Shown: positions 20,074 to 34,252 of the stretch, in pieces
Layout: every line of letters begins with the position of its first letter
Numbering within the stretch: position 1 is the first letter of the stretch
Origin: a virus
Lineage: Duplodnaviria; Caudoviricetes
IMG/VR virus record: IMGVR_UViG_3300028797_000101
Span: 64,001 to 128,000 of that record
DNA: 64,000 nucleotides
Direction: 5' to 3' (one strand)
Notes under the pieces: model-generated
What the model was told of the DNA's origin: nothing
Databases searched by the model: none
What the model saw: the letters and a program-made list of their open reading frames with translations, nothing else
Position numbers and translations under genes: made by a program

Positions 20074-20607
20074 ATGTCAGAAACAAAAAGCAACATTGCA
20101 CAGAGAAGTAAAGAGGAGTTGAGGGCAGATGGTGTGACTTTGCTTGGTGCAGGCCATACTGAGTACCCTAACACCTACAATCCAGGAGTGCTTCAGTCAT
20201 TTGAGAACAAGAACAAAGATGTCGATTATGTAATTACTTTCGACATTACAGAAGGCACAAGCCTTTGCCCTGTTACGCATCAGCCAGATTTCTTTAAGAT
20301 GGTTGTTACGTACATTCCTGCAGATAGATGCCTCGAATCAAAATCTGCAAAGTTATACAATTTTGGTTGGAGAGAGACTCCTTCCTACCATGAGGATATT
20401 GTCAATACTACTATGAAGGATATCAGAGATCTTATCCACCCGAAACTGATCGTAGTCAAAGGTATATTCTCGGTTCGTGGTGGCATCGCCTTGTTCCCTG
20501 TAGCTACATATGCTGATCCTAAGTATCCTGAGTATGTTGAGATGGAGAAGCAGATCAAGATGCAGTCCATGTGCGATGCAATCAATCGTACTGTCAAGTA
20601 TGACTAA
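20074..20607 (+). CDS. queF: preQ0 reductase (unimodular QueF)
   Basis: GVTLLG, TSLCPVTHQPDF (catalytic Cys/Asp), ESKSAKLY QueF motif, HED, RGGI. Confidence 0.9.
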   Translation: MSETKSNIAQRSKEELRADGVTLLGAGHTEYPNTYNPGVLQSFENKNKDVDYVITFDITEGTSLCPVTHQPDFFKMVVTYIPADRCLESKSAKLYNFGWRETPSYHEDIVNTTMKDIRDLIHPKLIVVKGIFSVRGGIALFPVATYADPKYPEYVEMEKQIKMQSMCDAINRTVKYD

Positions 20608-20631
20608 GTAACTACGGAAGGTGGAACGCAA

Positions 20632-21372
20632 ATGAAAGCGATAGTATTGAATTCAGGCGGTATGGACAGCTCAACGCTAGTCGGCGTGGCTGTTGAAAAA
20701 TATGGCAAAGAAAATGTAGTAACTGCAAGCTTGTTTTACGGACAGAAGCATTTCAAGGAGTTAGAGTGTGCTAAAAAGATTGCAGAATACTACGGAGTAC
20801 GTCACATTGAGGAGGATGTGTCATGCGTAATGAAGTATGCAGGCGATGTTTGCTCTCTCATTCAGGGCTCTAAAGACGAAATCATAGACAAAAGTTATGC
20901 TGATCAGATCGCAGAGAACGGAGAAGGCAGAGTCAACAGTTATGTACCCTTCCGGAATGGTCTCTTTTTATCAATCGCTGCGGCTTATGCAGATAGCTTG
21001 TTTCCAGGAGAGCCTTCCGAAGTATGGTACGGGGCTCACACGGACGACGCCGCAGGAAATGCGTATGCAGATTGCTCCTCAGAATTTGCAGAAGCTATGA
21101 ACAAAGCAATAAATATCGGCACATACGGAAACATAAATGTAGTGAGACCTCTCATCAACATGAACAAGGCCGATGTGTGTAGAGAAGGACTTAAGTTAAA
21201 TGTTCCTTATCACCTCACCACATCTTGCTATCATGGTAGAGAGAAGGCTTGTGGAAAGTGTGGAACATGTTTAGATCGCATTGAAGCATTTCGTGCAAAC
21301 GGTGTGATTGACCCTGTTGAGTATGAATCTGCTGTCGATTGGACAGGATGCAAGCCGGTTGAGATTCAGTAA
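20632..21372 (+). CDS. queC: 7-cyano-7-deazaguanine synthase
   Basis: SGGMDS PP-loop, YGQKH, YVPFRN, SCY...CGKCGTC. Confidence 0.95.
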   Translation: MKAIVLNSGGMDSSTLVGVAVEKYGKENVVTASLFYGQKHFKELECAKKIAEYYGVRHIEEDVSCVMKYAGDVCSLIQGSKDEIIDKSYADQIAENGEGRVNSYVPFRNGLFLSIAAAYADSLFPGEPSEVWYGAHTDDAAGNAYADCSSEFAEAMNKAINIGTYGNINVVRPLINMNKADVCREGLKLNVPYHLTTSCYHGREKACGKCGTCLDRIEAFRANGVIDPVEYESAVDWTGCKPVEIQ

Positions 21373-21385
21373 AGGAGAACATAGT

Positions 21386-21817
21386 ATGGCTACAGAAGTA
21401 GAAACTTATTTTTCATTCGAGGCAGCTCATAGGCTGTATGATGTTGACACGTATTCTGAGGAGTGCCGAAATAATCTTCATGGGCACTCTTATGTAGTTA
21501 AAGTAGTAGTGTCTAGTCGGAGCCTCAACAATGCGGGAATGGTGATTGACTTCAAGCTTCTTAAGAAGATTCTCAAGGAGACTATTGAGGACAAGTATGA
21601 TCATTCTTGTATTCTTCGTTCCTGTGATCCACTTGCAGAGGTTGTAAAGGCTAATTGTAAGAAGGTTCACATTGTAGAAGATAATCCTACTGCCGAGTGG
21701 ATGGCTAAGAAATTTTTCATGGATATCTTGTTTGCTCTTTCTTCCATGGAGTATATTACTGTTGAAAAAGTTTCTGTTCAGGAGACAGAACATAACATTG
21801 CTACGTTCATGGGGTGA
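21386..21817 (+). CDS. queD: 6-carboxytetrahydropterin synthase
   Basis: FEAAHRL, C..LHGHSY, GMVIDF, DH, NPTAE, ET. Confidence 0.93.
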   Translation: MATEVETYFSFEAAHRLYDVDTYSEECRNNLHGHSYVVKVVVSSRSLNNAGMVIDFKLLKKILKETIEDKYDHSCILRSCDPLAEVVKANCKKVHIVEDNPTAEWMAKKFFMDILFALSSMEYITVEKVSVQETEHNIATFMG

Positions 21818-21821
21818 TAAG

Positions 21822-22457
21822 ATGAAAATAACAGAAATTTTCAAAAGTATTTCAGGTGAATCTATACAGGCCGGATATCCGGCAACATTCATAAGAACAC
21901 ATGGATGTTTGCTAAGATGCAGCTATTGCGATTCGATGTATGCTGTAGAAGGCGATGGCTACGGGAACATGTCAATCGCTGAGATATTAGAGACAGTGCT
22001 GAAGCTAAACTGCAAGCGAATTGTGTTAACTGGTGGTGAGCCGCTCATTCAGCATGATGCATTTGATCTTGTTCAAGAACTTCTTGCTTATGGATGTTCT
22101 GTAGAGATTGAAACATGCGGCGCAGTAGATATTTCAAAGTATATTTTACCTGGCGTAATTGTTACCATGGACTGGAAATCTATAAGCAGCGGAATGAATG
22201 GCAGAATGCTGCCAAGCAACTTGAGTAAGCTTCGAGATACAGATGTACTTAAGTTTGTAGTTTCTACCGAGGATGATCTAGAAGACATGGCTAAAGTATC
22301 AACACAAACTAAAGCACAGTGCTTCGTCAGTCCGATATTTGGGAAAATTGACCCGCAGGAGATTGTCATGTATCTTATCCAGAATGATCTCAACAACATT
22401 CGGATTCAATTACAGCTACATAAAATAATTTGGGATCCAAACAGAAAAGGAGTGTAA
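21822..22457 (+). CDS. queE: 7-carboxy-7-deazaguanine synthase (radical SAM)
   Basis: [37 protein letters not shown]. Confidence 0.93.
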
Positions 22458-22458
22458 C

Positions 22459-23034
22459 ATGAAGAATATAGACAGCAAGAAGATCGAAGAGCTTACAAGA
22501 GAGTTTCTCATAGCTCTCGGAGATGATCCAGATCGCGAAGGGTTGAAGAAAACACCCTACAGAGTAGGTAAGATGTGTCAAGAGATTTTTGAAGGAATGC
22601 AGTATACTAATGAAAATATTGCGAAGATGTTCAACACCTGTTTTGAAGATGTAGCGACTGGCGATTTAGTTGTAGAGTGTCACATTCCTATTCACAGCTT
22701 CTGCGAGCATCATTTGATGCTAATGTACGAAGTAGATGTAGCTATCGGCTACATTCCTAATGGCCGTGTCATTGGTCTCAGTAAACTCGCAAGGATTGCA
22801 GACATGGTAGGCAAAAGACTTCAGCTTCAGGAGAGAATTGGTTCTGACATTGCCGATATTTTACAAATGGTTCTGAATACAGAAGACATCATTGTAGTTA
22901 TCGAGGGTAAACACGGCTGCATGACAGCAAGGGGCATCAAAGCTAGAGAAGCTGTAACGCGTACCGCTACACTTAGAGGTAGATTTAACACAGATTCTGA
23001 TCTGAGGGCGGAGTTCTATTCTTTAATAAAGTAG
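22459..23034 (+). CDS. folE: GTP cyclohydrolase I
   Basis: [32 protein letters not shown]. Confidence 0.96.
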
Positions 23035-23058
23035 TGCTTCGTTATAGCATATGATACT

Positions 23059-23122
23059 AGTCATGGTTCAGTGAACCTCACCTAATCCCATGACTCAAAA
23101 TAATGAAAAACCAAAAAGGAGG
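23059..23122 (+). promoter_or_regulatory. candidate preQ1 class I-like riboswitch
   Basis: stem AGTCATGG/CCATGACT; loop starts TTCA, ends ATC and holds CCTC; A-rich tail runs into AGGAGG; directly upstream of the queuosine precursor transporter. Confidence 0.5.
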
Positions 23123-23132
23123 AACTTAGAAC

Positions 23133-23855
23133 ATGAATTCTAAGAAAACAAGTCTTGTAGCGGACTATAAAATGCTACTCAGAAACGTACCTGCCCTTGT
23201 AACTGTCACATTTGTTGTCGGTACGCTTGCGATGAACTTAGCTGCCGCTAAGGTGATCTTCAATTTCGGCATCGTTGCCGGAACAGGCGGAATAATTCTG
23301 TCATGGCTTCCTTTCTTATGCATGGACACAGTGTCTAAGCATTTCGGAGCTAGGGCATCAATACTTCTTAACATCTTATCGTCGGCATTCAACATCTTAG
23401 TAACTATCTTTCTTGCAATCGTCGCAGCAATTCCTACTGAGCAAGATTATTCTGCGTTCAATACTTCATTTAGCGCAGTATGGTTTATTGTAGTAGCATC
23501 TAATGTCGCATTCATTCTTTCGGGAGTAGTAAACTCACTTCTTAATGTATCTGTTGGCAAATTGTTTAAAAATAAAACCAGCGGAGCTGAGTTCTTTACA
23601 AGGAGTGCGATTTCGACATTTGTCGGACAGGTAGTTGATAATTTCTTATTCATGTGGCTTCTTTATACTGTCTTCGCACCTATTTTCTGGGGCATGGAGC
23701 CTATGTCTGCTTTAACCTGTCTTGGAACTGGAATTCTTGGCGGCTTGCTAGAACTTGTATGTGAATTGATTCTTACACCCTTCGGCTACAAGATCATCAA
23801 GAACTGGGAACGCGATGGCGTAGGTCAAGAGTACATTGATGCACATAATGCGTAA
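23133..23855 (+). CDS. VUT/YhhQ (QueT-like) queuosine precursor transporter
   Basis: multi-TM; MNLAAAK, D.VS..FG, RS.IST.VGQ.VDN..F; follows the que operon. Confidence 0.8.
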   Translation: MNSKKTSLVADYKMLLRNVPALVTVTFVVGTLAMNLAAAKVIFNFGIVAGTGGIILSWLPFLCMDTVSKHFGARASILLNILSSAFNILVTIFLAIVAAIPTEQDYSAFNTSFSAVWFIVVASNVAFILSGVVNSLLNVSVGKLFKNKTSGAEFFTRSAISTFVGQVVDNFLFMWLLYTVFAPIFWGMEPMSALTCLGTGILGGLLELVCELILTPFGYKIIKNWERDGVGQEYIDAHNA

Positions 23856-23881
23856 GATTTTGAGATAATATAGACACGATT

Positions 23882-23918
23882 ACAACCCAGGAGCAACTAA
23901 AAGCTTCTGGGTTGTTTA
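23882..23918 (+). terminator. intrinsic terminator
   Basis: ACAACCCAGGAGC / GCTTCTGGGTTGT then TT. Confidence 0.7.
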
Positions 23919-23990
23919 CTGGTTCGTTATAGTTATCACAACCTTAAATACTATCAGTAGTAACACAATATCTGAATAAAGGAGGTTTAT

Positions 23991-24380
23991 GTGATGATAG
24001 AAATTGACTTCAGTCAGCCCTGTCCTAAGAAGTATGTCGACATCGTTCAGTATGGTGATGGCGATATGATAGACGATGAGGACATCGGCCTGATCGATGT
24101 AACCGGAGTAGATCCTGAAGAATATGCTCTGGAAGACGAAGGTGATCTGTATTATTTTCTTGTATCCAAGTTTGATGACGCATCTTGGAAGCAGCTTATC
24201 GATGCTATCATAGCAGCTACAGATTATTATGATCTGTATGCAAACATTGGTATCGACAATAACATACGAGAAGCTTTGAACCTTGGTCACACAGGCGCAG
24301 TAGTTATCACAGCAGTAGGTGATAACAGAGAAACCGGTGAAACGGAAGATTTCCAGATTGCATACTTCGCGTTAGAGTAA
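23991..24380 (+). CDS. acidic hypothetical protein
   Basis: AAGGAGG RBS. Confidence 0.7.
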   Translation: MMIEIDFSQPCPKKYVDIVQYGDGDMIDDEDIGLIDVTGVDPEEYALEDEGDLYYFLVSKFDDASWKQLIDAIIAATDYYDLYANIGIDNNIREALNLGHTGAVVITAVGDNRETGETEDFQIAYFALE

Positions 24381-24388
24381 ATTATCAA

Positions 24389-24427
24389 ATAGAGCATATC
24401 TCAGTACATAGGTATGCTCTATCTTTA
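24389..24427 (+). terminator. intrinsic terminator
   Basis: ATAGAGCATATCT / AGGTATGCTCTAT then CTTT. Confidence 0.6.
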
Positions 24428-24466
24428 TGGTTGAATCGTTATATACTACAGTAAGGAGGTATTCAG

Positions 24467-25993
24467 ATGAATATAAACAACTATAAGGGTCTAGAAACAC
24501 TATCTGCTCTAGAGTTAGGCGAAAAGGTAAATTTCAAAGAAATTTCACCTGTAGAGGTAATCGAATATTTTAGAGCACGAGTAGAATCTAGAAACCCCTC
24601 TATCAATGCATTTGTGTATACAAAGTTTGATGAAGCACTGAAAGAAGCCGAAGAACTAGAGAAGATGATACTCGCAGGAGATCATTTCAAGCCTCTGGCA
24701 GGTGTACCAATTGGGTTGAAAGACTTCTTGCCCACCAAGAAAGGATGGACAGCGTCACATGGCGGAGTGCCAAGTTTAATAACTGTCGATGATTGCGATT
24801 CTGAGTTCTACAAAGCTGCAAAGAGCTTAGGTGCAATCGCCATTGGGAAGACTAATGCACCTTCTTTCGGATTCCGCGGTGTATGCGATAACAAGATGTA
24901 TGGACCTACCTCAACTCCATTCAATGTAAAATACAATTCTGGCGGGTCGTCTGGTGGTTCTGCATCAGCAGTAGGTGATGGACTTGCACTTGCGTGTGAA
25001 GGAGGAGATGCTGGCGGATCTACTAGAATTCCGTCTGCTTGGTGTGGATGCTTTGGGTTCAAACCGTCTGCCGGAATTGTTCCAAGTGTATGTAGGCCTG
25101 ATGCTTGGGCCGCAACACACCCGTATTGCTGTTCTGGCCCAATCACGAAAACTGTATCAGATGCCGCAGCTATTCTCAGAAAGATGATAAGATTCGATTT
25201 ACGCGACCCTCTCAGTGTTCCAGTACCCGCAAATCTTCTGAGTATATGCGCCGACCTTGTAACACACCTGAACAAGCCGCTAGAAGGCGTTAGGATCGGT
25301 GTAACTAAGACATTCGATATTTTTCCTAATCCGGATGATCCTGTTTCATCTGCCATTGATGAAGCTGCAAAACTGCTTAAAGATCTGGGCGCAGAAATCG
25401 TTGAGACGAAATTCGATTTCGGATGTGATCGGGAATACATAGAAAACATGTGGTTACGAAGCATCAGTATCGATACTGCACTTGATTTTGAATGCAACAG
25501 AATTGCTACAGGAGAAGACATGCTTGAGAAGTTGCAAGATGAGCTTCCGATTAAGATGATGGTATGGACTAGAATAGCATTCTCATCGACTATGATGGAT
25601 TACAGGAAGTTTCATGAAATCCGAACAAAGATACTGGATGAGCATTTCAAGAACTTTGAAAAATGCGATATCTTACTAGCTCCGGTTACCGGTTGTTTAC
25701 CAGTTCTGAATAAAAATACAGATGCTGAGGGCCTTGTTGCAGGACCTTCTTTCATAGGCGGAGAGAAAGTTGATCCCTTCATCGGTTTTGGATACACCTA
25801 TCTTGAAAACTTGACTGGATTTCCGGCTGCATCTGTACCATTCAAGATAGATTCAGCTAACAATCTTCCTGTAGGTATCCAGTTAATCGGCAGAAGATAC
25901 ATGGACGATGAAGTTATCAATGTGGCCAGATGTATTGAATACGTTCACCCTTGGAGAGATTTCTACAAGATTCCTTTTGGTAGATCGTTATAA
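24467..25993 (+). CDS. amidase signature family protein (GatA-like fold)
   Basis: PLAGVPIGLKD, GKTN, GGSSGGSA, DAGGSTRIPSAWCG..GFKPS, LPVGIQLIG; Lys-cisSer-Ser triad present. Confidence 0.9.
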   Translation: MNINNYKGLETLSALELGEKVNFKEISPVEVIEYFRARVESRNPSINAFVYTKFDEALKEAEELEKMILAGDHFKPLAGVPIGLKDFLPTKKGWTASHGGVPSLITVDDCDSEFYKAAKSLGAIAIGKTNAPSFGFRGVCDNKMYGPTSTPFNVKYNSGGSSGGSASAVGDGLALACEGGDAGGSTRIPSAWCGCFGFKPSAGIVPSVCRPDAWAATHPYCCSGPITKTVSDAAAILRKMIRFDLRDPLSVPVPANLLSICADLVTHLNKPLEGVRIGVTKTFDIFPNPDDPVSSAIDEAAKLLKDLGAEIVETKFDFGCDREYIENMWLRSISIDTALDFECNRIATGEDMLEKLQDELPIKMMVWTRIAFSSTMMDYRKFHEIRTKILDEHFKNFEKCDILLAPVTGCLPVLNKNTDAEGLVAGPSFIGGEKVDPFIGFGYTYLENLTGFPAASVPFKIDSANNLPVGIQLIGRRYMDDEVINVARCIEYVHPWRDFYKIPFGRSL

Positions 25994-26376: not shown

Positions 26377-26537
26377 GATCGTTATATACATTAGAAATGA
26401 AACATACGGCGAGGCACAGAAGGTTTCACAGAGATGCAAAGAGAAGCTGCTACTGAGATCAGGGCGGAGATAATGACGAGGAAGTTAAGTCTTTGTAGAA
26501 CAATCTTTTCTTCAGTGCCGGAACTCCTTTCTTTAAT

Positions 26538-26672
26538 GTAGATGTAAGGTGACGGAACTCATGGTAAACGTGGCGATGGAGGTAATTGGCTAACTACCAT
26601 CCCTGAACAGGTTCGAAACCGCTTACCTTTTAGTAAAAGGATTGTAGGTTCAAGTCCTACTCTTACATCTAC
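26538..26672 (+). ncRNA. tRNA-like RNA with the anticodon domain replaced by a 72-nt insert
   Basis: acceptor TGTAAGG/TCTTACA extended by GTAGA/TCTAC; D arm ACG..GGTAAA..CGT; T arm GTAGG-TTCAAGT-CCTAC. Confidence 0.65.
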
Positions 26673-26675
26673 TAC

Positions 26676-26748
26676 GCTCTTGTAGCACAATTGGCAGTGC
26701 AGCTGATTTGTAATCAGCAGGTTGGGGGTTCGAGTCCCTCCAGGAGCT
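26676..26748 (+). tRNA. tRNA-Thr(TGT)
   Basis: cloverleaf; anticodon arm GCTGA-TTTGTAA-TCAGC; TTCGAGT T loop; no encoded CCA. Confidence 0.92.
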
Positions 26749-26869
26749 TTGAAAGCTGATATATCCTATCGGACTCAACAATGGGGATGGCGTAGATAAC
26801 TCCGCAGAACCGCGCTTCAGCTTTCTCCCCTCTAAACTCCGCATCATCTATACAAAGGAGGTTGAACTC

Positions 26870-27064
26870 ATGCAAGTTAAGATCGCCTGGAAAACACTCG
26901 ACAATGTACAGCTTAAAACATTCAAGGACGAGTTCGCTTGTATTGAGTGGTGCCGTAGGAACGCAACAAACATCATGAGCATCAACGGTGTGCTTACAGG
27001 CAGGAACAACTTATCACATTTTGATGTTAAAGATTGTTTAGAGAGCAAGTTTTTCGACTATTAG
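26870..27064 (+). CDS. small hypothetical protein
   Basis: AAGGAGG RBS. Confidence 0.65.
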   Translation: MQVKIAWKTLDNVQLKTFKDEFACIEWCRRNATNIMSINGVLTGRNNLSHFDVKDCLESKFFDY

Positions 27065-27079
27065 ATTTTAATATATTTT

Positions 27080-27152
27080 CGGGATGTGGTGCAGTTGGTA
27101 GCATGCGTGATTTGGGATCACGAGGTCGTGGGTTCGAGTCCCGTCATTCCGA
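27080..27152 (+). tRNA. tRNA-Pro(TGG)
   Basis: CGGGATG/CATTCCG acceptor; CGTGA-TTTGGGA-TCACG. Confidence 0.92.
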
Positions 27153-27583
27153 TTTACAAACCAGAGAAGGAGATGGTATACATGAAATACGCAAGAAAAT
27201 GTATTTGTCATGGGGCAGCAACCAAGAGAATTGGCAAACTTGATCTCTGCAATGATTGCGCAAAACGTGTCCATAGAAAGAAAAGTAAATATGTGTTGAC
27301 TGATGTTCATGTATTCACTATTCCTCCCAGTCTGAAAATATACAGAGATATCATCATCAATGTGTACTGATATCAATGTGCCAATTATTCTGCAGAAGTG
27401 AGGTAGAATCATGAAAGGATCTAAAAGACATCGTTGGTTCAAAGAAGGTGTTCATGCAAGCAGAAAATACATGAAGCATGTCATGAATCGCAGAGTTAGA
27501 CACATGAATAACATCTCTAGCGGATGCAGTTACAAGCGAATACTTAAGGAAGGAGAGTTCTGCAGAGTGGATTAAATGTATAC

Positions 27584-27656
27584 TGGAGGCTACCCAAGCG
27601 GTTATGGGGCGGGCCTTATAAGCCCGTTGCGTCGAGTTCGACTCTCGAGCCTCCAA
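27584..27656 (+). tRNA. tRNA-Ile(TAT)
   Basis: TGGAGGC/GCCTCCA acceptor; CGGGC-CTTATAA-GCCCG; TCGAG-TTCGACT-CTCGA. Confidence 0.85.
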
Positions 27657-27694
27657 TTTTCTACTAGGTTGTTGAATTAAGGAGGAAACAAAAC

Positions 27695-27946
27695 ATGATG
27701 AATGATCTCAAGGACACTATTGAGTTGATGCAGAGCGAGGATTACAAAGATCGCTTCAGGGCTGAGTATTATCAGACTAAGATCCGGTACAACAAGCTGC
27801 ATACACTTCTTCTTCAGTTGGACGCCGGAACTGCAAAAATTACACCGAAGTGTCCCAAAGATCTGCTTAAAAGACAATGTGCTGACATGGGTTCGTATCT
27901 GTGTGCTCTGGAAGTTAGAGCTGAAATCGAAGAAATCGATCTGTAG
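27695..27946 (+). CDS. small phage protein (crAss001_48-like)
   Basis: DYKDRFRAEYYQTKIRY.KL...LL..Q...M..YL..LE.RA pattern. Confidence 0.6.
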   Translation: MMNDLKDTIELMQSEDYKDRFRAEYYQTKIRYNKLHTLLLQLDAGTAKITPKCPKDLLKRQCADMGSYLCALEVRAEIEEIDL

Positions 27947-27963
27947 AAATGAGAGGCGATTTG

Positions 27964-28863
27964 ATGAAAGTCAAAACGTGGCGTGATCCTTATAATTCCG
28001 GATTTTCTGTAACACGCCCTAGAGAAATAGAATTTCATGAAGGATTGACCGTGCTTGTAGGATGCAATGGCGCAGGAAAATCTACATTACTACAAAATAT
28101 AAAAGAGCATTGCAAACATCAAAATTTACCTTGCTTCTTTTATGATAATTTACATTCTGGGGGCAGCCATGCACTACAAGAAGCAATGTATTCTGACTTA
28201 ACATCATTTGTTTCACTTTTATCATCTTCTGAAGGAGAAGCTATCAGAGAAAATCTTGCAGAGAAAAGCAGCTACTTTCTGCATTTTATTCAAACAGGCC
28301 TAATAAATGACCGACATAATAACTTCTTAAGAGCTATGAAGGCATTATCAGGTGAACCTAATACTGAAGTAGATAGCGATGTACGAGTATTTCTGTTTGA
28401 TGCTATAGATAGCGGAATGTCGGTAGACGCTGTTGTAGAAGTAAAAGAGATGTTCAAGCAGATTGAAGAGGATTGCAAGAAAGAAAACAAAAAAGTCTAC
28501 ATTCTGATTTCTGCAAATGAATACGAATTGGCTAGAGAGTGTGATTGCTTCGATGTAAACACCGGCAAGTATCTTAGATTTTCTGACTACATGGATTACA
28601 GAGAGTTTATCTGCAAGTCTAGAGTACGAAAAGAGAAACGATACGCTGATCAAAAGATATGGATCGAGAAGCAGAAAGAAAAAGAGCTAGCAAAGTATCG
28701 TAAGCTTCTACAAGCTACTAAAGAGAAAAGAGATAAGCTCTTAGCTTCCAAACATCCTGATCGTTGGGAGCTTAGAGACCTCGAAGACGAACCTAAAGAA
28801 TTCTTACGGTCAGCTAGATTCATATCTGAAGAAGACGTAGCATTCATAGAAAATTCCACATGA
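27964..28863 (+). CDS. stand-alone ABC-type ATPase
   Basis: GLTVLVGCNGAGKSTLL, SSSEGE signature, FLFDAIDSGMS Walker B/D-loop. Confidence 0.8.
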   Translation: MKVKTWRDPYNSGFSVTRPREIEFHEGLTVLVGCNGAGKSTLLQNIKEHCKHQNLPCFFYDNLHSGGSHALQEAMYSDLTSFVSLLSSSEGEAIRENLAEKSSYFLHFIQTGLINDRHNNFLRAMKALSGEPNTEVDSDVRVFLFDAIDSGMSVDAVVEVKEMFKQIEEDCKKENKKVYILISANEYELARECDCFDVNTGKYLRFSDYMDYREFICKSRVRKEKRYADQKIWIEKQKEKELAKYRKLLQATKEKRDKLLASKHPDRWELRDLEDEPKEFLRSARFISEEDVAFIENST

Positions 28864-29131
28864 ATACACAGGAGTAGAAATCTCCTTGTAAAACTCGTTA
28901 GCATAGACGATAGGTGTGATACGGTAAATGCTTTGACAGACAAGATTCTGGTGACTTTGGTAGTGGGAAAAGAAAACTACCACATGTCTCTTGTAAGCGT
29001 AGACATTAAATAAAACTTTCTGATCATCTAATGATGAGGGCATGGCATCCTATGAGTGCACACCTGAAAAGGTTTAGGATGGGAAAAGAGAGTCCATGTA
29101 GAGCGGTGGTATCGTCTCATTAGATTTATTG

Positions 29132-29250
29132 TAAGCAGAATCTCGACTACGAGAAACTGTGTAATGGGCTGTTGGCGAGCCCTCAAAGAATAAGGCTCTC
29201 GTAGCAACCTTCTTTGGAATCCCAGTGGCTTTAGCCGCTGGGAGTGTCAA
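29132..29250 (+). mobile_element. IS200/IS605-type right end / tnpB 3' remnant (omegaRNA scaffold)
   Basis: GAATCCCAGTGGCTTTAGCCGCTGGGAGTGTCAA terminal hairpin ending TCAA; upstream frame KQNLDYEKLCNGLLASPQRIRLS* resembles a TnpB C-terminal tail. Confidence 0.65.
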
Positions 29251-29254
29251 ATAC

Positions 29255-29330
29255 TCCTCAATAGCTCAATCGGTTAGTTAGCGCTCGCTTGTTAACCGAG
29301 TTGTTGCAGGTTCGAGTCCTACCTGGGGAG
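29255..29330 (+). tRNA. tRNA-Asn(GTT), degenerate or pseudo
   Basis: cloverleaf recognisable, with mismatches in the acceptor (A-C), anticodon (C-C), T (C-A) and D stems. Confidence 0.6.
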
Positions 29331-29332
29331 TT

Positions 29333-29640
29333 CCTGTCAAATCAGGCGTGTAGAAAGATCGCGTAAGTATCTTTCGGTTGATATCTTCTTCTAATGAAGA
29401 AGCGAAGCTTTTACTGCTGAGGGTAAATCAGCGGCGCAAAACGGGTGAAGCGTCATTCACCCGTCGTTTACTTAGTAGTGGGAAAAGGGAAATCGTTCAA
29501 ATCGTGGAGGATATCTATTGTATATCTGTTGAAACGGTGATGATAAGACTAGATTGGTTGAGAATCTAGATGATGGTGCAGCCCTCGGTCAAGGTGAAGC
29601 AGTTCATTCCAGAAACTGATAGTCTTGTGGTTAAACTACT
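29333..29640 (+). ncRNA. unidentified multi-hairpin structured RNA
   Basis: at least 5 stems of 7-9 bp between two tRNA genes; no credible ORF. Confidence 0.45.
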
Positions 29641-29643
29641 AAT

Positions 29644-29727
29644 GCTATTGTGGTGGAATAGGCAGACACAAGGGACTTAAAATCCCTCGATGGAAACATC
29701 ATACGAGTTCAAGTCTCGTCAATAGCA
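29644..29727 (+). tRNA. tRNA-Leu(TAA)
   Basis: GCTATTG/CAATAGC; AGGGA-CTTAAAA-TCCCT; long variable arm GATG-GAAA-CATC. Confidence 0.92.
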
Positions 29728-29730
29728 TTT

Positions 29731-29880
29731 GTCTCGGTGGCGGAATAAGTAGACGCTAAAGTAGACGGTCGAAAGATGTTGTGAGGAAACAGTTCGAGTC
29801 TGTGAGTCTCCTGGTTCGACTCCTGGGGGCGCATGGTGCAATATCAACATCATGTAAGGTGCAAATCCTTACCCGAGATA
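29731..29880 (+). ncRNA. tRNA-like RNA with a 97-nt insert carrying extra T-loop hairpins
   Basis: acceptor GTCTCGG/CCGAGAT; Leu-type D arm GCG-GAATAAGTAGA-CGC; T arm GTAAGG-TGCAAAT-CCTTAC. Confidence 0.65.
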
Positions 29881-30005
29881 TACACCGCACGGATGGCCTT
29901 GGGTGCAACCGACGGGTGGAGACAGTTAATGCAACTTCGGTGCGGTATACAAATGAATATGGGCCTCAAGCAGAAAGTGGTACACCCTTCATGAGTATGC
30001 AATAT

Positions 30006-30078
30006 AGCCCTTTCGCCAAGCGGTGAAGGCACAGCACTTTGACTGCTGTATTCGATGGTTCAAATCCATCAAGGGCTG
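30006..30078 (+). tRNA. tRNA-Gln(TTG)
   Basis: AGCCCTT/AAGGGCT; GCCAAGCGGTGAAGGC D arm; CAGCA-CTTTGAC-TGCTG. Confidence 0.92.
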
Positions 30079-30116
30079 CGCATTATCTTTTCTTGTTTTC
30101 CATTTTTGTTGTTTGA

Positions 30117-32428: not shown

Positions 32429-32997
32429 TGGGTTTAGGAAGCATGGAACAGAGAACTGCAGGCATGAAGCGGCAAGCTAAAGAACTTATAGAGCAATCGT
32501 ACCTGCGTGGGTATAAAGCGGGATATTCTAAGGCAGAAACCGATTATCACGCTAACACAGAAGATGATCGGCAATCGTCTTATGAGTTAGGTTCAAATAT
32601 GGCTTGGGAAGCGGCGCGTAAACTGGTGTCAATGAATTACATTGAGTGTAACAAAGTCCTTAGCGACGGTGTTTTGACGGTTGAAACTGTAGATGATATT
32701 TTTATCAAATACACTGCATCCGAAGCAATTGAGAAAATCCAGGCTTATGCGGAGCAGAAGAAACAGAAAGAAGACGAAGAAATCTGCGTTGGTGATGAAG
32801 TCATATTGAATGCAAATTCATCTTATGACGCAAACACAAAAGCAATCGTTATTGTAAACGACAACAGTACAAGATATCCATACAATGTGCTAGGTCCTGA
32901 TGGTGAAACCGAATGGGTCGACCTAGATGCTATTGACGGTAAGACGGGCCACACATTTCCAGAAATCGTGGAAGCTTTAGAGAAGTTAAGGAGTTGA
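32425..32997 (+). CDS. hypothetical protein, tandem paralog 2
   Basis: same shared motifs as 31901-32428. Confidence 0.75.
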   Translation: MMGLGSMEQRTAGMKRQAKELIEQSYLRGYKAGYSKAETDYHANTEDDRQSSYELGSNMAWEAARKLVSMNYIECNKVLSDGVLTVETVDDIFIKYTASEAIEKIQAYAEQKKQKEDEEICVGDEVILNANSSYDANTKAIVIVNDNSTRYPYNVLGPDGETEWVDLDAIDGKTGHTFPEIVEALEKLRS

Positions 32998-34252
32998 AGG
33001 AGAACGGGTGAATGGAGAATAAATGTAAATATTGGGATGAAGAAAAAGACGGAGTTTCAGATGATAAGTTAAAGGATTTCGCACTTAATTTCCAAGCCAG
33101 AATAAACAATGAACTCCTGTGGGAAAATGAACAATTGAAGCTAAGAATCGAAGCATTGCAGCCGGATCATTACGGAGATTGTATCAGCCGTAAAACTGTG
33201 CTCAAAGTAATTGAAACAGTATGTTTCAGCGATGCTTGGAGGCAGTTTAGGGCAGATTATGGAAGTAACGGAGAGAGGGACTATATAATCAACTACATAA
33301 AACAGATGCCATCTACTCGGCCCGACCAGACGATTATTATGTGCAAGGACTGCGATGAATGGGACAGAGGCAAGAACTACAGTGGTTATGATGTGCGCAG
33401 CGATATGGGATATTGTTCCGTTATGCACACTGTTGTAGGCGAGAACTACTATTGTGGTGATGCAGTAAGAAAGTGAGGATAAGGAAGATGAAAGTAATAT
33501 TTGATCTAATTATTTTTGTCGGAGTTGCATCCGGAGTTTCCACATATTTTGGAATGAAACTTGTGGAGTGGTTGGAATAAGGAATCTTACTGGACAAGAA
33601 GGAAAATGATAGAAAGATGAGTGCATGGAGCAGGAGGGCAAGTGAATGAAGATTGACGAAGCAATCAAAAGGTTCATTGACAACGCAGAATATGAGCGTT
33701 CTCATGGAAATCTGCAAGGGTGTTTAGAGTTTAGACAACTTGCGGAATGGCTTGCAGAGCTTAAACATTTGAGAGAACAGACGGATCCTTGCGAGGACAC
33801 TATCAGCAGACGGGCTGCTGTATCCGTTGCGAATGATTTTGATGCAACCATGGTGGTAAGGGGATTGGAGAGGTTGCCCTCTGTTCATCCGGAACAGAAG
33901 ATCGGGAAATGGATAACCTTAAAAGATGAGTATGGGGATGTAGTAGAAGCTGTTTGCTCTAACTGCGGAAGGAATGGAAGTCCCAATTGGAAGTATTGCC
34001 CGGACTGCGGAAAACTGAAAGAGGTGAGTGATGGAAATCAAGGAAATAAAACCAACAGATAAGGACTATCCTATCATCATGGGCTTAGTTGACAAACCCG
34101 AACAATATACGTTGTTTCGTTTAGACGGATTGACAGTAGTTCCTTTGTATCAAGTCATTGATGCTCTTTTAACAATCAAGCCCGATGTGAATGTAAGAAA
34201 TGGCATAAAATATTGTGCTAATTGTGGCAAGAAGATGGAGGAAGATAGGTAA

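What the first reader, a model, noticed from the sequence alone, without database searches (positions are those of the whole stretch)
26538..26672. tRNA-shell RNA 1: intact acceptor, D and T arms around a 72-nt non-anticodon insert
Seen: 7-bp acceptor extended by 5 bp, U8-G9, a Leu/Ser-type D arm and a perfect T arm. The interior holds GATGG/CCATC, GGT-TCGAA-ACC and CCTTTT/AAAAGG helices but no canonical 5-bp/7-nt anticodon arm. It is too short for a group I intron. Inference: a tRNA elbow mimic carrying a different functional domain.
Basis: partly seen in the sequence, partly recalled or inferred. Interest (0 to 1): 0.7.

Follow-up and report, generated by a model that had tools for sequence, protein, structure and literature searches.

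The report
Anticodon-less tRNA-shaped phage RNA gene
This 135-base stretch at the head of a cattle-gut phage's tRNA cluster is a tRNA-shaped RNA gene that cannot read codons; it is of the same kind as the long-known but still unexplained 'tRNA-like stable RNA' RNA1 of phage T5, and sister phages have deleted most of it.

Summary
Window 26538-26672 has a 12-bp closing stem, U8-G9, a leucine-type (class II) D arm, a perfect T arm and 72 nt between them with no anticodon arm. ARAGORN and Rfam call nothing.

I built a covariance model from 50 unrelated IMG/VR phage RNAs: Leu-type D arm, a 58-82-nt insert, T arm, none called as tRNA. It matches exactly 26543-26668 (45.2 bits, E 4e-10). That is the best hit in the 159-kb genome. 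It is comparable to phage T5 RNA1 (48.3 bits), annotated 'tRNA-like stable RNA with unknown functions'.

Four close homologues keep the shell, with compensatory changes in the D stem and at the innermost stem pair. The window's T-loop-like GGTTCGAAACC is not conserved. Sister phages carry 83-nt and 44-45-nt internal-deletion forms that keep only the 12-bp hairpin, always 3 nt before tRNA-Thr.

No consistent spliced tRNA can be derived, and the phage has no RNA ligase, Ro or CCA enzyme.

Verdict: a divergent, dispensable member of a known but unexplained kind, the phage anticodon-less tRNA-like stable RNAs. Expression and function are untested. Earlier notes of this scan describe the same family in other phages.

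The parts
26538..26549 (+). 5' strand of the 12-bp closing stem. 26543-26549 is the 7-bp acceptor equivalent; 26538-26542 is the 5-bp extension.
   Evidence: Sequence and fold. Kept in all relatives. The five variable stem positions are all A/G opposite U, so pairing is preserved.
26550..26571 (+). U8-G9 and a class II (Leu-type) D arm: a 3-bp stem plus G.A, with loop AA...GG...A.
   Evidence: Aligned to D-arm positions of model R1. C-G to U-A compensatory change in L142 and L148.
26575..26601 (+). Hairpin H1. The stem in the register shared by the homologues is 26579-26584 / 26595-26601, with loop ATTGGCTAAC.
   Evidence: 2 of 23 columns vary among the A-type homologues. The GATGG/CCATC register read by the first stage is specific to the window.
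26608..26621 (+). Weak hairpin H2 holding the T-loop-like GGTTCGAAACC. It is also the only anticodon-loop-like site (UU-CGA-AA), but only 3 of 5 stem pairs form.
   Evidence: 5 of 14 columns vary. It reads GGTTTGATGCT or GGTTTGATATC in the homologues. ARAGORN uses it as Ser(cga) only after artificial deletions that cut the D arm.
26626..26640 (+). Hairpin H3, CCTTTT-AGT-AAAAGG, in the position of a class II variable arm.
   Evidence: 1 of 22 columns varies across 26622-26643.
26644..26660 (+). Canonical T arm, GTAGG-TTCAAGT-CCTAC.
   Evidence: The stem is invariant; two loop positions vary. Aligned to the T arm of R1.
26661..26672 (+). 3' strand of the closing stem. The discriminator-equivalent U at 26668 is paired.
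26673..26748 (+). Invariant 3-nt spacer TAC, then tRNA-Thr(UGU), the first true tRNA of the island.
   Evidence: ARAGORN and Rfam. The spacer is identical in all relatives.

Best explanation
It is a non-decoding, tRNA-derived RNA gene. It keeps the top half of a class II (leucine-type) tRNA, namely the acceptor helix, D arm, T arm and their elbow. A 72-nt insert of three hairpins replaces the anticodon and variable arms.

It is a divergent member of the phage family that includes T5 RNA1.

Proposed working (inferred):
- It is transcribed with the tRNA island.
- The tRNA-like core folds. RNase P cleavage at the 5' end of tRNA-Thr, 3 nt downstream, frees its 3' end.
- The closed 12-bp helix stacked on the T arm, together with the elbow, makes a nuclease-resistant RNA of about 125-138 nt.
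- The discriminator position is a paired U and no single-stranded NCCA end is encoded. It therefore most likely stays uncharged and acts, if at all, as a stable tRNA-shaped RNA rather than in translation.

It is an accessory. Sister phages have lost the interior and keep only the terminal hairpin.
For: Shown:
- Model R1 was built from 50 IMG/VR Leu-type shells of other phages, whose acceptor covaries at 7 of 7 pairs. It matches 26543-26668 end to end at 45.2 bits, E 4e-10. This is the top hit of the genome and lies above the phage's real tRNA-Leu at 40 bits.
- T5 RNA1, annotated 'tRNA-like stable RNA with unknown functions', scores 48.3 bits and also has U at the discriminator position.
- Four A-type homologues (window, L136, L142/L145, L148) keep the shell. 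There is a C-G to U-A change in the D stem, and pair 12-124 occurs as G.U, A-U and G-C. GG in the D loop and TTC..A in the T loop are invariant.
- The element differs by 13% between the window and L136, against 34.5% at fourfold-degenerate sites of the adjacent amidase gene. Variation is concentrated in the D loop, the linkers and H2.
- No anticodon arm is found.
- The second shell in the same island (29731-29879) has homologues whose acceptor stems covary at 6 of 7 pairs. Such shells are therefore maintained genes in this clade.
Against:
- R1 also scores true tRNA-Leu genes at 32-42 bits, so it shows a Leu-type shell, not descent from the family.
- Only four A-type sequences exist, and the covariation is not significant on its own (93 of 500 shuffles reach it).
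- L142, L132, L134 and L138 give no full-length R1 match at this site: the L142 D arm has drifted, and the deleted B and C forms give none (L148, cut off by the contig end, gave no match either).
- Sister phages with the same flanks carry 83-nt and 44-45-nt deletion forms.
- The upstream spacer is even better conserved (96.9%). Low divergence may therefore be regional rather than specific to the element.
- The 5-bp extension and the paired U73 are atypical. In the family 69 of 84 have A73, and the extension is 0-1 bp in 78 of 84.
Confidence: 0.55

Rival explanations
1. Relic plus hairpin. The tRNA-like interior is a decaying class II tRNA paralogue (Ser- or Leu-type) with no function of its own. 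What selection keeps is only the 12-bp hairpin placed 3 nt before tRNA-Thr. After RNase P cuts at tRNA-Thr, this hairpin would be a 3'-terminal stem-loop protecting the upstream 7-deazaguanine/amidase/KTSC mRNA from 3' exonucleases. Alternatively it is a leader structure for processing of tRNA-Thr.
For: - The stem and the TAC spacer are kept in every relative, while the interior ranges from about 20 to 111 nt (forms of 135, 133, 83 and 44-45 nt).
- All five variable stem positions preserve pairing.
- The deleted forms are clean, very stable hairpins (z -5.0 to -6.4).
- H2 looks like a decayed anticodon arm (UU-CGA-AA or UU-UGA-U with 3 of 5 stem pairs).
- The island is full of marginal or duplicated tRNAs and changes its tRNA content between relatives.
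- No promoter or terminator is predicted between KTSC and the element.
Against: - Among A-type phages the D stem shows a compensatory change.
- The elbow nucleotides, T arm, H1 and H3 are far better conserved than fourfold-degenerate sites.
- T5 RNA1, equally similar to the family model, is annotated as a stable RNA rather than a pseudogene.
Confidence: 0.3
2. An intron-bearing tRNA. The insert, or part of it, is removed to give an ordinary class II tRNA such as tRNA-Ser(CGA/UGA). H2 would be the anticodon arm and H3 the long variable arm. This would resemble the 'enigmatic' tRNA introns reported in Lak megaphages (PMC6784885).
For: - After some artificial deletions of 39-45 nt, ARAGORN calls tRNA-Ser(cga) in the window. 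A few deletions in L136 and L142 give Ser(tga).
- H3 sits where a class II variable arm would.
- Devoto et al. report phage tRNAs with introns, one of which may itself encode a tRNA.
Against: - The deletions that work cut through the D arm.
- The calls differ between homologues: Ser cga; Gly acc, Ser gct or tga, Gln; undefined.
- The putative anticodon stem has only 3 of 5 pairs, and position 37 is U in three of the four homologues.
- H2 is the least conserved helix.
- ARAGORN's intron mode finds nothing at normal thresholds.
- The insert is too short for a group I intron, and Rfam finds no intron or ribozyme.
- The phage encodes no RtcB or Rnl2-type ligase.
Confidence: 0.05
3. A member of another described tRNA-mimic class: a tmRNA tRNA-like domain, a YrlA/Y RNA partner of Ro, or a self-cleaving ribozyme that trims the tRNA-Thr leader.
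For: - Weak Rfam YrlA alignments overlap the T arm and tRNA-Thr (18.2 and 21.5 bits).
Against: - The YrlA gathering score is 69 bits, and the match mostly uses the neighbouring real tRNA.
- The genome has no TROVE/Ro gene.
- ARAGORN's tmRNA mode finds nothing. There is no G3.U70 and no tag reading frame.
- No ribozyme family matches at E<=10.
- The CUGA..GAAA letters of the window are not conserved in the homologues.
Confidence: 0.03

Closest known systems
Phage T5 RNA1 (AY543070 30501-30644, 'tRNA-like stable RNA with unknown functions') and RNA2 (32959-33083)
   Same: - Encoded in the phage tRNA gene region.
- Acceptor-like closing stem, Leu-type D arm (CCGGAAUUGGUAGACGG in RNA1), canonical T arm, and an insert of about 80 nt with no anticodon arm.
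- RNA1 scores 48.3 bits on model R1, against 45.2 for this element, and also has U at the discriminator position.
- RNA2 has an inner T-arm-like hairpin as well as the outer T arm, like the window's copy.
   Different: - No direct sequence homology of the inserts.
- The T5 RNAs lack a 12-bp perfect closure: RNA1 has a 7-bp stem with a mismatch, and RNA2 has 8 bp.
- The T5 RNAs are annotated as stable RNA species. This element has no expression data.
Phage T4 species 1 RNA (rnaC, 139 nt) and species 2 RNA (rnaD), AF158101 70908-71171
   Same: - Small stable RNAs of unknown function encoded beside the phage tRNAs.
- rnaC has a canonical T arm (CCGGG-UUCGAAU-CCCGG), an acceptor-like stem and a long non-anticodon interior.
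   Different: - rnaC has no Leu-type D arm.
- Its acceptor has two U.U mismatches.
- It matches R1 only weakly and partially (22.9 bits).
- No sequence relationship is shown.
Unannotated Leu-type anticodon-less shells of IMG/VR phages
   Same: A 7-bp acceptor, U8-G9, a class II D arm, 58-82 nt of hypervariable insert, a canonical T arm, and no ARAGORN call. This element has a 72-nt insert and matches end to end.
   Different: - The family usually has an unpaired A73 (69 of 84) and at most 3 extra closing pairs. This element has a paired U and 5 extra pairs.
- Its D arm (ACGG..ACGT, or ATGA..CAT in relatives) has drifted from GCGG..CGC.
Minimal tRNA-Leu substrates lacking anticodon and variable arms (Larkin et al. 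2002, as summarised in PMC9976931)
   Same: The same architecture: acceptor plus the D/T core without an anticodon arm. E. coli LeuRS charges such molecules if A73 and the D/T-loop tertiary pairs are intact.
   Different: Those need A73 and a free 3' end. Here the discriminator equivalent is U and is base-paired, so leucylation is not expected.
tRNA genes with 'enigmatic introns' in Lak megaphages (Devoto et al. 2019, PMC6784885)
   Same: Oversized phage tRNA genes that bacterial tRNA finders miss. One insert may itself look like a tRNA.
   Different: In Lak phages, removing the insert leaves a complete tRNA with an anticodon. Here no consistent spliced tRNA exists.

Membership tests
Canonical tRNA (Rfam RF00005 / ARAGORN) | Cloverleaf with a 5-bp, 7-nt anticodon arm between the D and T arms | tested here: not met
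   No RF00005 match even at E<=10. ARAGORN gives none at default, with or without introns. The best anticodon-like site has 3 of 5 stem pairs.
Canonical tRNA (Rfam RF00005 / ARAGORN) | 7-bp acceptor, U8, D arm with GG, T arm with TTCRA | tested here: met
   Sequence; alignment to R1.
Phage Leu-type anticodon-less tRNA-like RNAs (T5 RNA1 kind; model R1) | End-to-end match to the shell model (acceptor, class II D arm, T arm) with a long insert in place of the anticodon and variable arms | tested here: met
   45.2 bits, E 4e-10, model positions 1-121, 72-nt insert. T5 RNA1 scores 48.3 bits. Caveat: real tRNA-Leu genes score 32-42 bits, so the absence of an anticodon arm is the separating feature.
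Phage Leu-type anticodon-less tRNA-like RNAs (T5 RNA1 kind; model R1) | Unpaired discriminator, usually A73, and no long extension of the acceptor helix | tested here: not met
   The discriminator equivalent is U26668, paired with A26542, and there are 5 extra pairs. In the family, A is found in 69 of 84 and the extension is 0-1 bp in 78 of 84, with a maximum of 3. T5 RNA1 also has U.
Phage Leu-type anticodon-less tRNA-like RNAs (T5 RNA1 kind; model R1) | Accumulates as a discrete stable RNA | not testable with these tools
Intron-containing tRNA | Removing one segment yields the same canonical tRNA in all homologues | tested here: not met
   Exhaustive virtual deletions were run through ARAGORN. 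The window gives Ser(cga) only when the D arm is cut. L136 and L142 give other, inconsistent calls. The genome has no RtcB or Rnl2 ligase.
tmRNA tRNA-like domain | tmRNA model match, G3.U70 and a tag reading frame | tested here: not met
   ARAGORN's tmRNA mode finds none even at a lowered threshold. Rfam tmRNA gives no match at this locus. Pair 3-70 is U-A.
YrlA / Y RNA | Rfam RF02553 at the gathering score, and a Ro (TROVE) protein partner | tested here: not met
   18.2 bits against a gathering score of 69. The phage has no TROVE gene.
Self-cleaving ribozymes (hammerhead, twister and others) | Match to a ribozyme covariance model, and a conserved catalytic core | tested here: not met
   None at E<=10. 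The CUGA and GAAA letters vary among homologues.

The most novel reading that the evidence does not exclude
The shell is a natural 'tRNA scaffold'. The conserved top half recruits tRNA-processing enzymes and gives stability. The phage-specific insert, here the conserved hairpins with loop AUUGGYUAAC and CCUUYU/AAAAGG, is the working part: for example a binding site or decoy for a host factor or a tRNA-targeting defence nuclease. The wider family, with its hypervariable inserts, would then be a general phage device for expressing small functional RNAs.
Probability: 0.2. Interest if true: 0.7.

Novelty: new member of a known kind. Interest (0 to 1): 0.35.

Why it matters
tRNA-like stable RNAs in the tRNA gene regions of phages T4 and T5 are still annotated as having unknown function. 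This locus shows that the same kind of gene occurs in an uncultured rumen phage.

A model built here from more than 80 unannotated IMG/VR copies also recognises T5 RNA1. That links a large silent family to a species annotated as a stable RNA.

The locus also offers a natural deletion series: 135, 133, 83 and 44-45 nt in otherwise syntenic phages. The series separates two layers of constraint. The terminal hairpin before tRNA-Thr is always kept. The tRNA-like core is kept only in some lineages. This gives ready-made constructs for testing what such RNAs do.

For annotation, it is a reminder that tRNA finders and Rfam miss these genes.

Tried and rejected
- Megablast of the island against GenBank phages: no match.
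- IMG/VR relatives found through the amidase (50-57% identity) have no tRNAs nearby and no homologue of the element.
- The AAA ATPase of the island has no IMG/VR relative.
- Exact-pattern scans for the interior, and for the 3' stem plus tRNA-Thr, found nothing in IMG/VR and only two JGI contigs.
- Several ENA and Logan contigs could not be read.
- A scan for two T loops 10-40 nt apart mostly returned complete tRNAs followed by an orphan T arm (63 of 107). It was not a homologue set.
- Rejected classes: tmRNA, YrlA, hammerhead and other ribozymes, group I intron.
- Rejected idea, spliceable tRNA.
- A search for antisense targets of the H1 loop found nothing above chance.
- No sigma-70-like promoter or intrinsic terminator flanks the element on its strand.
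- Folding the conserved upstream spacer together with the element gave no significant larger structure (z -0.9).
- A small reading frame running into the stem is not conserved in frame among relatives (read).
- The likeness of H1 to the variable arm of the phage's tRNA-Leu (CGATGG..CATC) is too short to count.

Full report
**1. The observation**

The window is bases 64001-128000 of a 159,304-bp IMG/VR phage genome with direct terminal repeats.

The stretch 26538-26672 reads as the first stage said:
- Twelve contiguous pairs close it, 26538-26549 with 26661-26672. Eleven are Watson-Crick and one is G.U.
- U-G follows the stem.
- Next is a D arm with a 3-bp stem, a G.A apposition and an AA...GG...A loop, as in class II tRNAs.
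- The T arm is perfect: GTAGG-TTCAAGT-CCTAC.
- Seventy-two bases lie between the D and T arms. They can form GATGG/CCATC, GGT-TCGAA-ACC and CCTTTT/AAAAGG.
- tRNA-Thr(UGU) starts 3 nt after the stem.

No tRNA is called. ARAGORN finds none, with or without introns. At a 50% threshold it forces a poor tRNA-Arg with an intron inside the anticodon stem. Rfam gives no tRNA, tmRNA, ribozyme or intron match at E<=10. The only overlapping alignments are a YrlA alignment at 18 bits (gathering score 69), which mostly uses the neighbouring tRNA-Thr, and a 19-bit CRISPR-repeat alignment on the opposite strand (gathering score 39).

A 12-bp stem alone is not remarkable. There are 8 in the window and 1-7 in shuffles.

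**2. Relatives**

Public phage records and IMG/VR hold no close relative. Protein look-ups with the adjacent amidase and KTSC genes found contigs of sister phages.

Between a conserved upstream spacer and tRNA-Thr, the element occurs in several sizes:
- A-type, four variants: the window (135 nt; L137 is a 99.5% identical fragment); L135/L136 (133 nt); L142/L145 (133 nt); and L148 (contig ends inside the element).
- B, 83 nt: L132/L133. The T arm has been lost by a deletion between the two AGGT(T)C motifs.
- C, 44-45 nt: L134, L138, L139, L143, L144. Only the 12-bp stem and a loop of about 20 nt, beginning TGACGG, remain.

The stem and the TAC spacer are present in all. The five variable stem positions (5, 9, 10, 12, 128) are all A/G opposite U, so pairing is always kept. 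L142 additionally turns G12.U124 into G-C. The deleted forms are very stable plain hairpins (z -5 to -6.4).

**3. Constraint within the full-length forms**

On the three-sequence alignment the tRNA-like structure is 97% paired. Two pairs change on both sides: C16-G33 to U-A in the D stem, and pair 12-124. The interior helices show only single disruptions. With three sequences this is not significant: 93 of 500 shuffles reach it.

Variable columns are unevenly spread:

| Region | Variable columns |
|---|---|
| D loop | 8 of 14 |
| Linker, element positions 35-41 | 3 of 7 |
| Linker, element positions 65-70 | 3 of 6 |
| H2 | 5 of 14 |
| H1 | 2 of 23 |
| Segment with H3 | 1 of 22 |
| T arm | 2 of 17 (loop only) |
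| 12-bp stem | 3 of 24 |

The GG of the D loop and T54-T55-C56-A58 never change.

The window and L136 differ at 34.5% of fourfold-degenerate sites in the amidase gene, but at 13% of the element. tRNA-Thr differs at 0% and the upstream spacer at 3%.

The window's T-loop-like GGTTCGAAACC reads GGTTTGATGCT or GGTTTGATATC elsewhere. The GATGG/CCATC register is also specific to the window. The shared hairpin is GATG-TA / TA-C-CATC with loop ATTGGYTAAC.

**4. What kind of thing it is**

The D arm resembles that of tRNA-Leu. A second 'shell' lies in the island at 29731-29879. It has homologues in L138 and L139, and a look-alike in an unrelated phage (L098). Their acceptor stems covary at 6 of 7 pairs, and no shuffle of 500 reaches the score.

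I then scanned IMG/VR for a Leu-type D arm followed, 58-82 nt later, by a T loop. This spacing is too far for a real tRNA-Leu.
- Of 103 distinct sequences, 84 have at least 6 of 7 acceptor pairs and a T stem. Chance would give about 1% (my calculation).
- ARAGORN calls none of them.
- 69 of 84 have A at the discriminator position.
- The inserts are unalignable.

On 50 of them the acceptor covaries at all seven pairs. Note that the sequences were selected for pairing, so the percentage paired is circular. The diversity of pair types is not.

The covariance model R1 built from these 50 gives the following matches:

| Target | Score |
|---|---|
| Window 26543-26668, end to end | 45.2 bits, E 4e-10; best hit of the whole genome |
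| L136 copy | 42.8 bits |
| The shell-2 homologues | 34-36 bits |
| T5 RNA1, annotated 'tRNA-like stable RNA with unknown functions' | 48.3 bits |
| T4 rnaC | 22.9 bits, partial |
| Real tRNA-Leu genes | 32-42 bits |

Because real tRNA-Leu genes also score, the model demonstrates a Leu-type shell. The missing anticodon arm is the separating feature. L142, L132, L134 and L138 give no full-length match at this site: the L142 D arm has drifted, and the deleted B and C forms give none. L148, whose contig ends inside the element, gave no match either.

T5 RNA2 also carries an inner T-arm-like hairpin, like the window's copy.

**5. Where this element departs from the family**

Its discriminator equivalent is U and is paired. 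The acceptor helix runs on for 5 more pairs. In the family the extension is 0-1 bp in 78 of 84 and never more than 3.

E. coli LeuRS charges tRNA-Leu variants that lack the anticodon and variable arms, provided A73 and the D/T tertiary pairs are intact (PMC9976931). That makes leucylation plausible for the A73 majority of the family. It is unlikely here.

**6. Rivals tested**

*Splicing.* Every possible single deletion was made in three homologues and passed to ARAGORN.
- The window gives only tRNA-Ser(cga). This uses GGTTCGAAACC as the anticodon arm and requires the D arm to be cut.
- The other homologues give different and mutually inconsistent calls.
- The putative anticodon stem has 3 of 5 pairs.
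- The phage has no RtcB, Rnl2-type ligase, CCA-adding enzyme or Ro protein.
- Lak-phage 'enigmatic introns' (PMC6784885) leave a complete tRNA when removed. This insert does not.

*Relic plus hairpin.* This fits the deletion series and the invariant stem and spacer, and I cannot exclude it. The stem would then serve as the 3'-terminal protective hairpin of the upstream mRNA after RNase P cuts at tRNA-Thr, or as a leader element for that tRNA. No promoter or terminator is predicted between KTSC and the element.

**7. Most likely working**

*Shown:*
- A tRNA-like top half that is conserved in the nearest relatives.
- No decoding arm.
- Membership by model in the T5 RNA1 kind.
- Dispensability of the interior in sister phages.
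- Constant placement 3 nt before tRNA-Thr.

*Inferred:*
- Co-transcription with the island.
- 3' end formation by RNase P cleavage at tRNA-Thr.
- Accumulation as a stable, uncharged RNA of about 125-138 nt.
- Any trans-acting role.

I put 0.55 on a maintained, non-decoding tRNA-like RNA. I put 0.30 on a relic inside a selected hairpin, 0.05 on a spliced tRNA and 0.03 on other mimic classes.

**8. Novelty**

The kind is known: T5 RNA1 and RNA2, and T4 species 1 RNA. Its function is unknown. Earlier notes of this scan describe the same Leu-type shell family in other phages. I re-derived it independently here and tied it to T5 RNA1.

This copy is a divergent member. Its main added value is the natural deletion series. 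I found no paper describing the family in the searches I could run, but many older papers are not in that library.

Noticed in passing
window 29731-29879; L139:1003-1134; L138:6024-6134; L098:291-399: A second anticodon-less shell follows tRNA-Leu by 3 nt (it follows tRNA-Met in L138 and L139). It has a Leu-type D arm, a non-canonical T loop (UGCAAAU) and A at the discriminator in 3 of 4 copies. The interiors of 58-97 nt differ between phages. The acceptor stems covary at 6 of 7 pairs (0 of 500 shuffles reach the score).
   Followed up: partly
L149-L262 (IMG/VR loci): More than 80 distinct unannotated Leu-type tRNA shells lie in unrelated phage contigs. Model R1 also recognises T5 RNA1.
   Followed up: partly
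L015-L131 (IMG/VR loci): In 63 of 107 distinct cases where two T loops lie 10-40 nt apart, a complete tRNA is followed directly by an orphan T-arm hairpin with no matching 5' acceptor. In 10 cases only the distal T arm closes onto a far 5' acceptor (for example L017, L098, L109).
   Followed up: no
window 26377-26537: The non-coding spacer between the KTSC gene and the element is better conserved than the coding DNA. It is 96.9% identical to L136, against about 92% for the genes and 65% at fourfold-degenerate sites. It has no significant fold (z -0.9), and no reading frame is conserved in it.
   Followed up: partly
window 26676-30079 compared with L132, L138, L139: The tRNA content of the island differs between close relatives.
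- Window: Thr, Pro, Ile, Asn, Leu, Gln.
- L132: Thr, Pro, Met, Gln.
- L138: Thr, Met, Leu, Pro, plus two marginal tRNA-like hits.
- L139: Thr, Met, Leu, and a diverged duplicate of tRNA-Thr read as Cys(ACA). The duplicate keeps the same CTACTAC leader and trailer.

Five relatives' contigs (L133-L136 from Logan assemblies, and one JGI contig) stop within 350 nt after KTSC; four of them break inside tRNA-Thr.
   Followed up: no
window 20074-25993: Upstream on the same strand lies a 7-deazaguanine/queuosine-type gene set: QueC and GTP cyclohydrolase I matched here, with PTPS and a radical-SAM enzyme listed between them in a near-identical contig, and QueF in L132. A Vut_1/YhhQ-type transporter and a 508-aa amidase follow.
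   Followed up: no
L263:2660-2784 (-) = T5 RNA2: T5 RNA2 folds with an 8-bp closing stem, an outer canonical T arm and an inner T-arm-like hairpin (CUCG-UUCGAUU-CGAG). This is the same 'double T-arm' layout as the window's shells. R1 matches only its T arm.
   Followed up: partly
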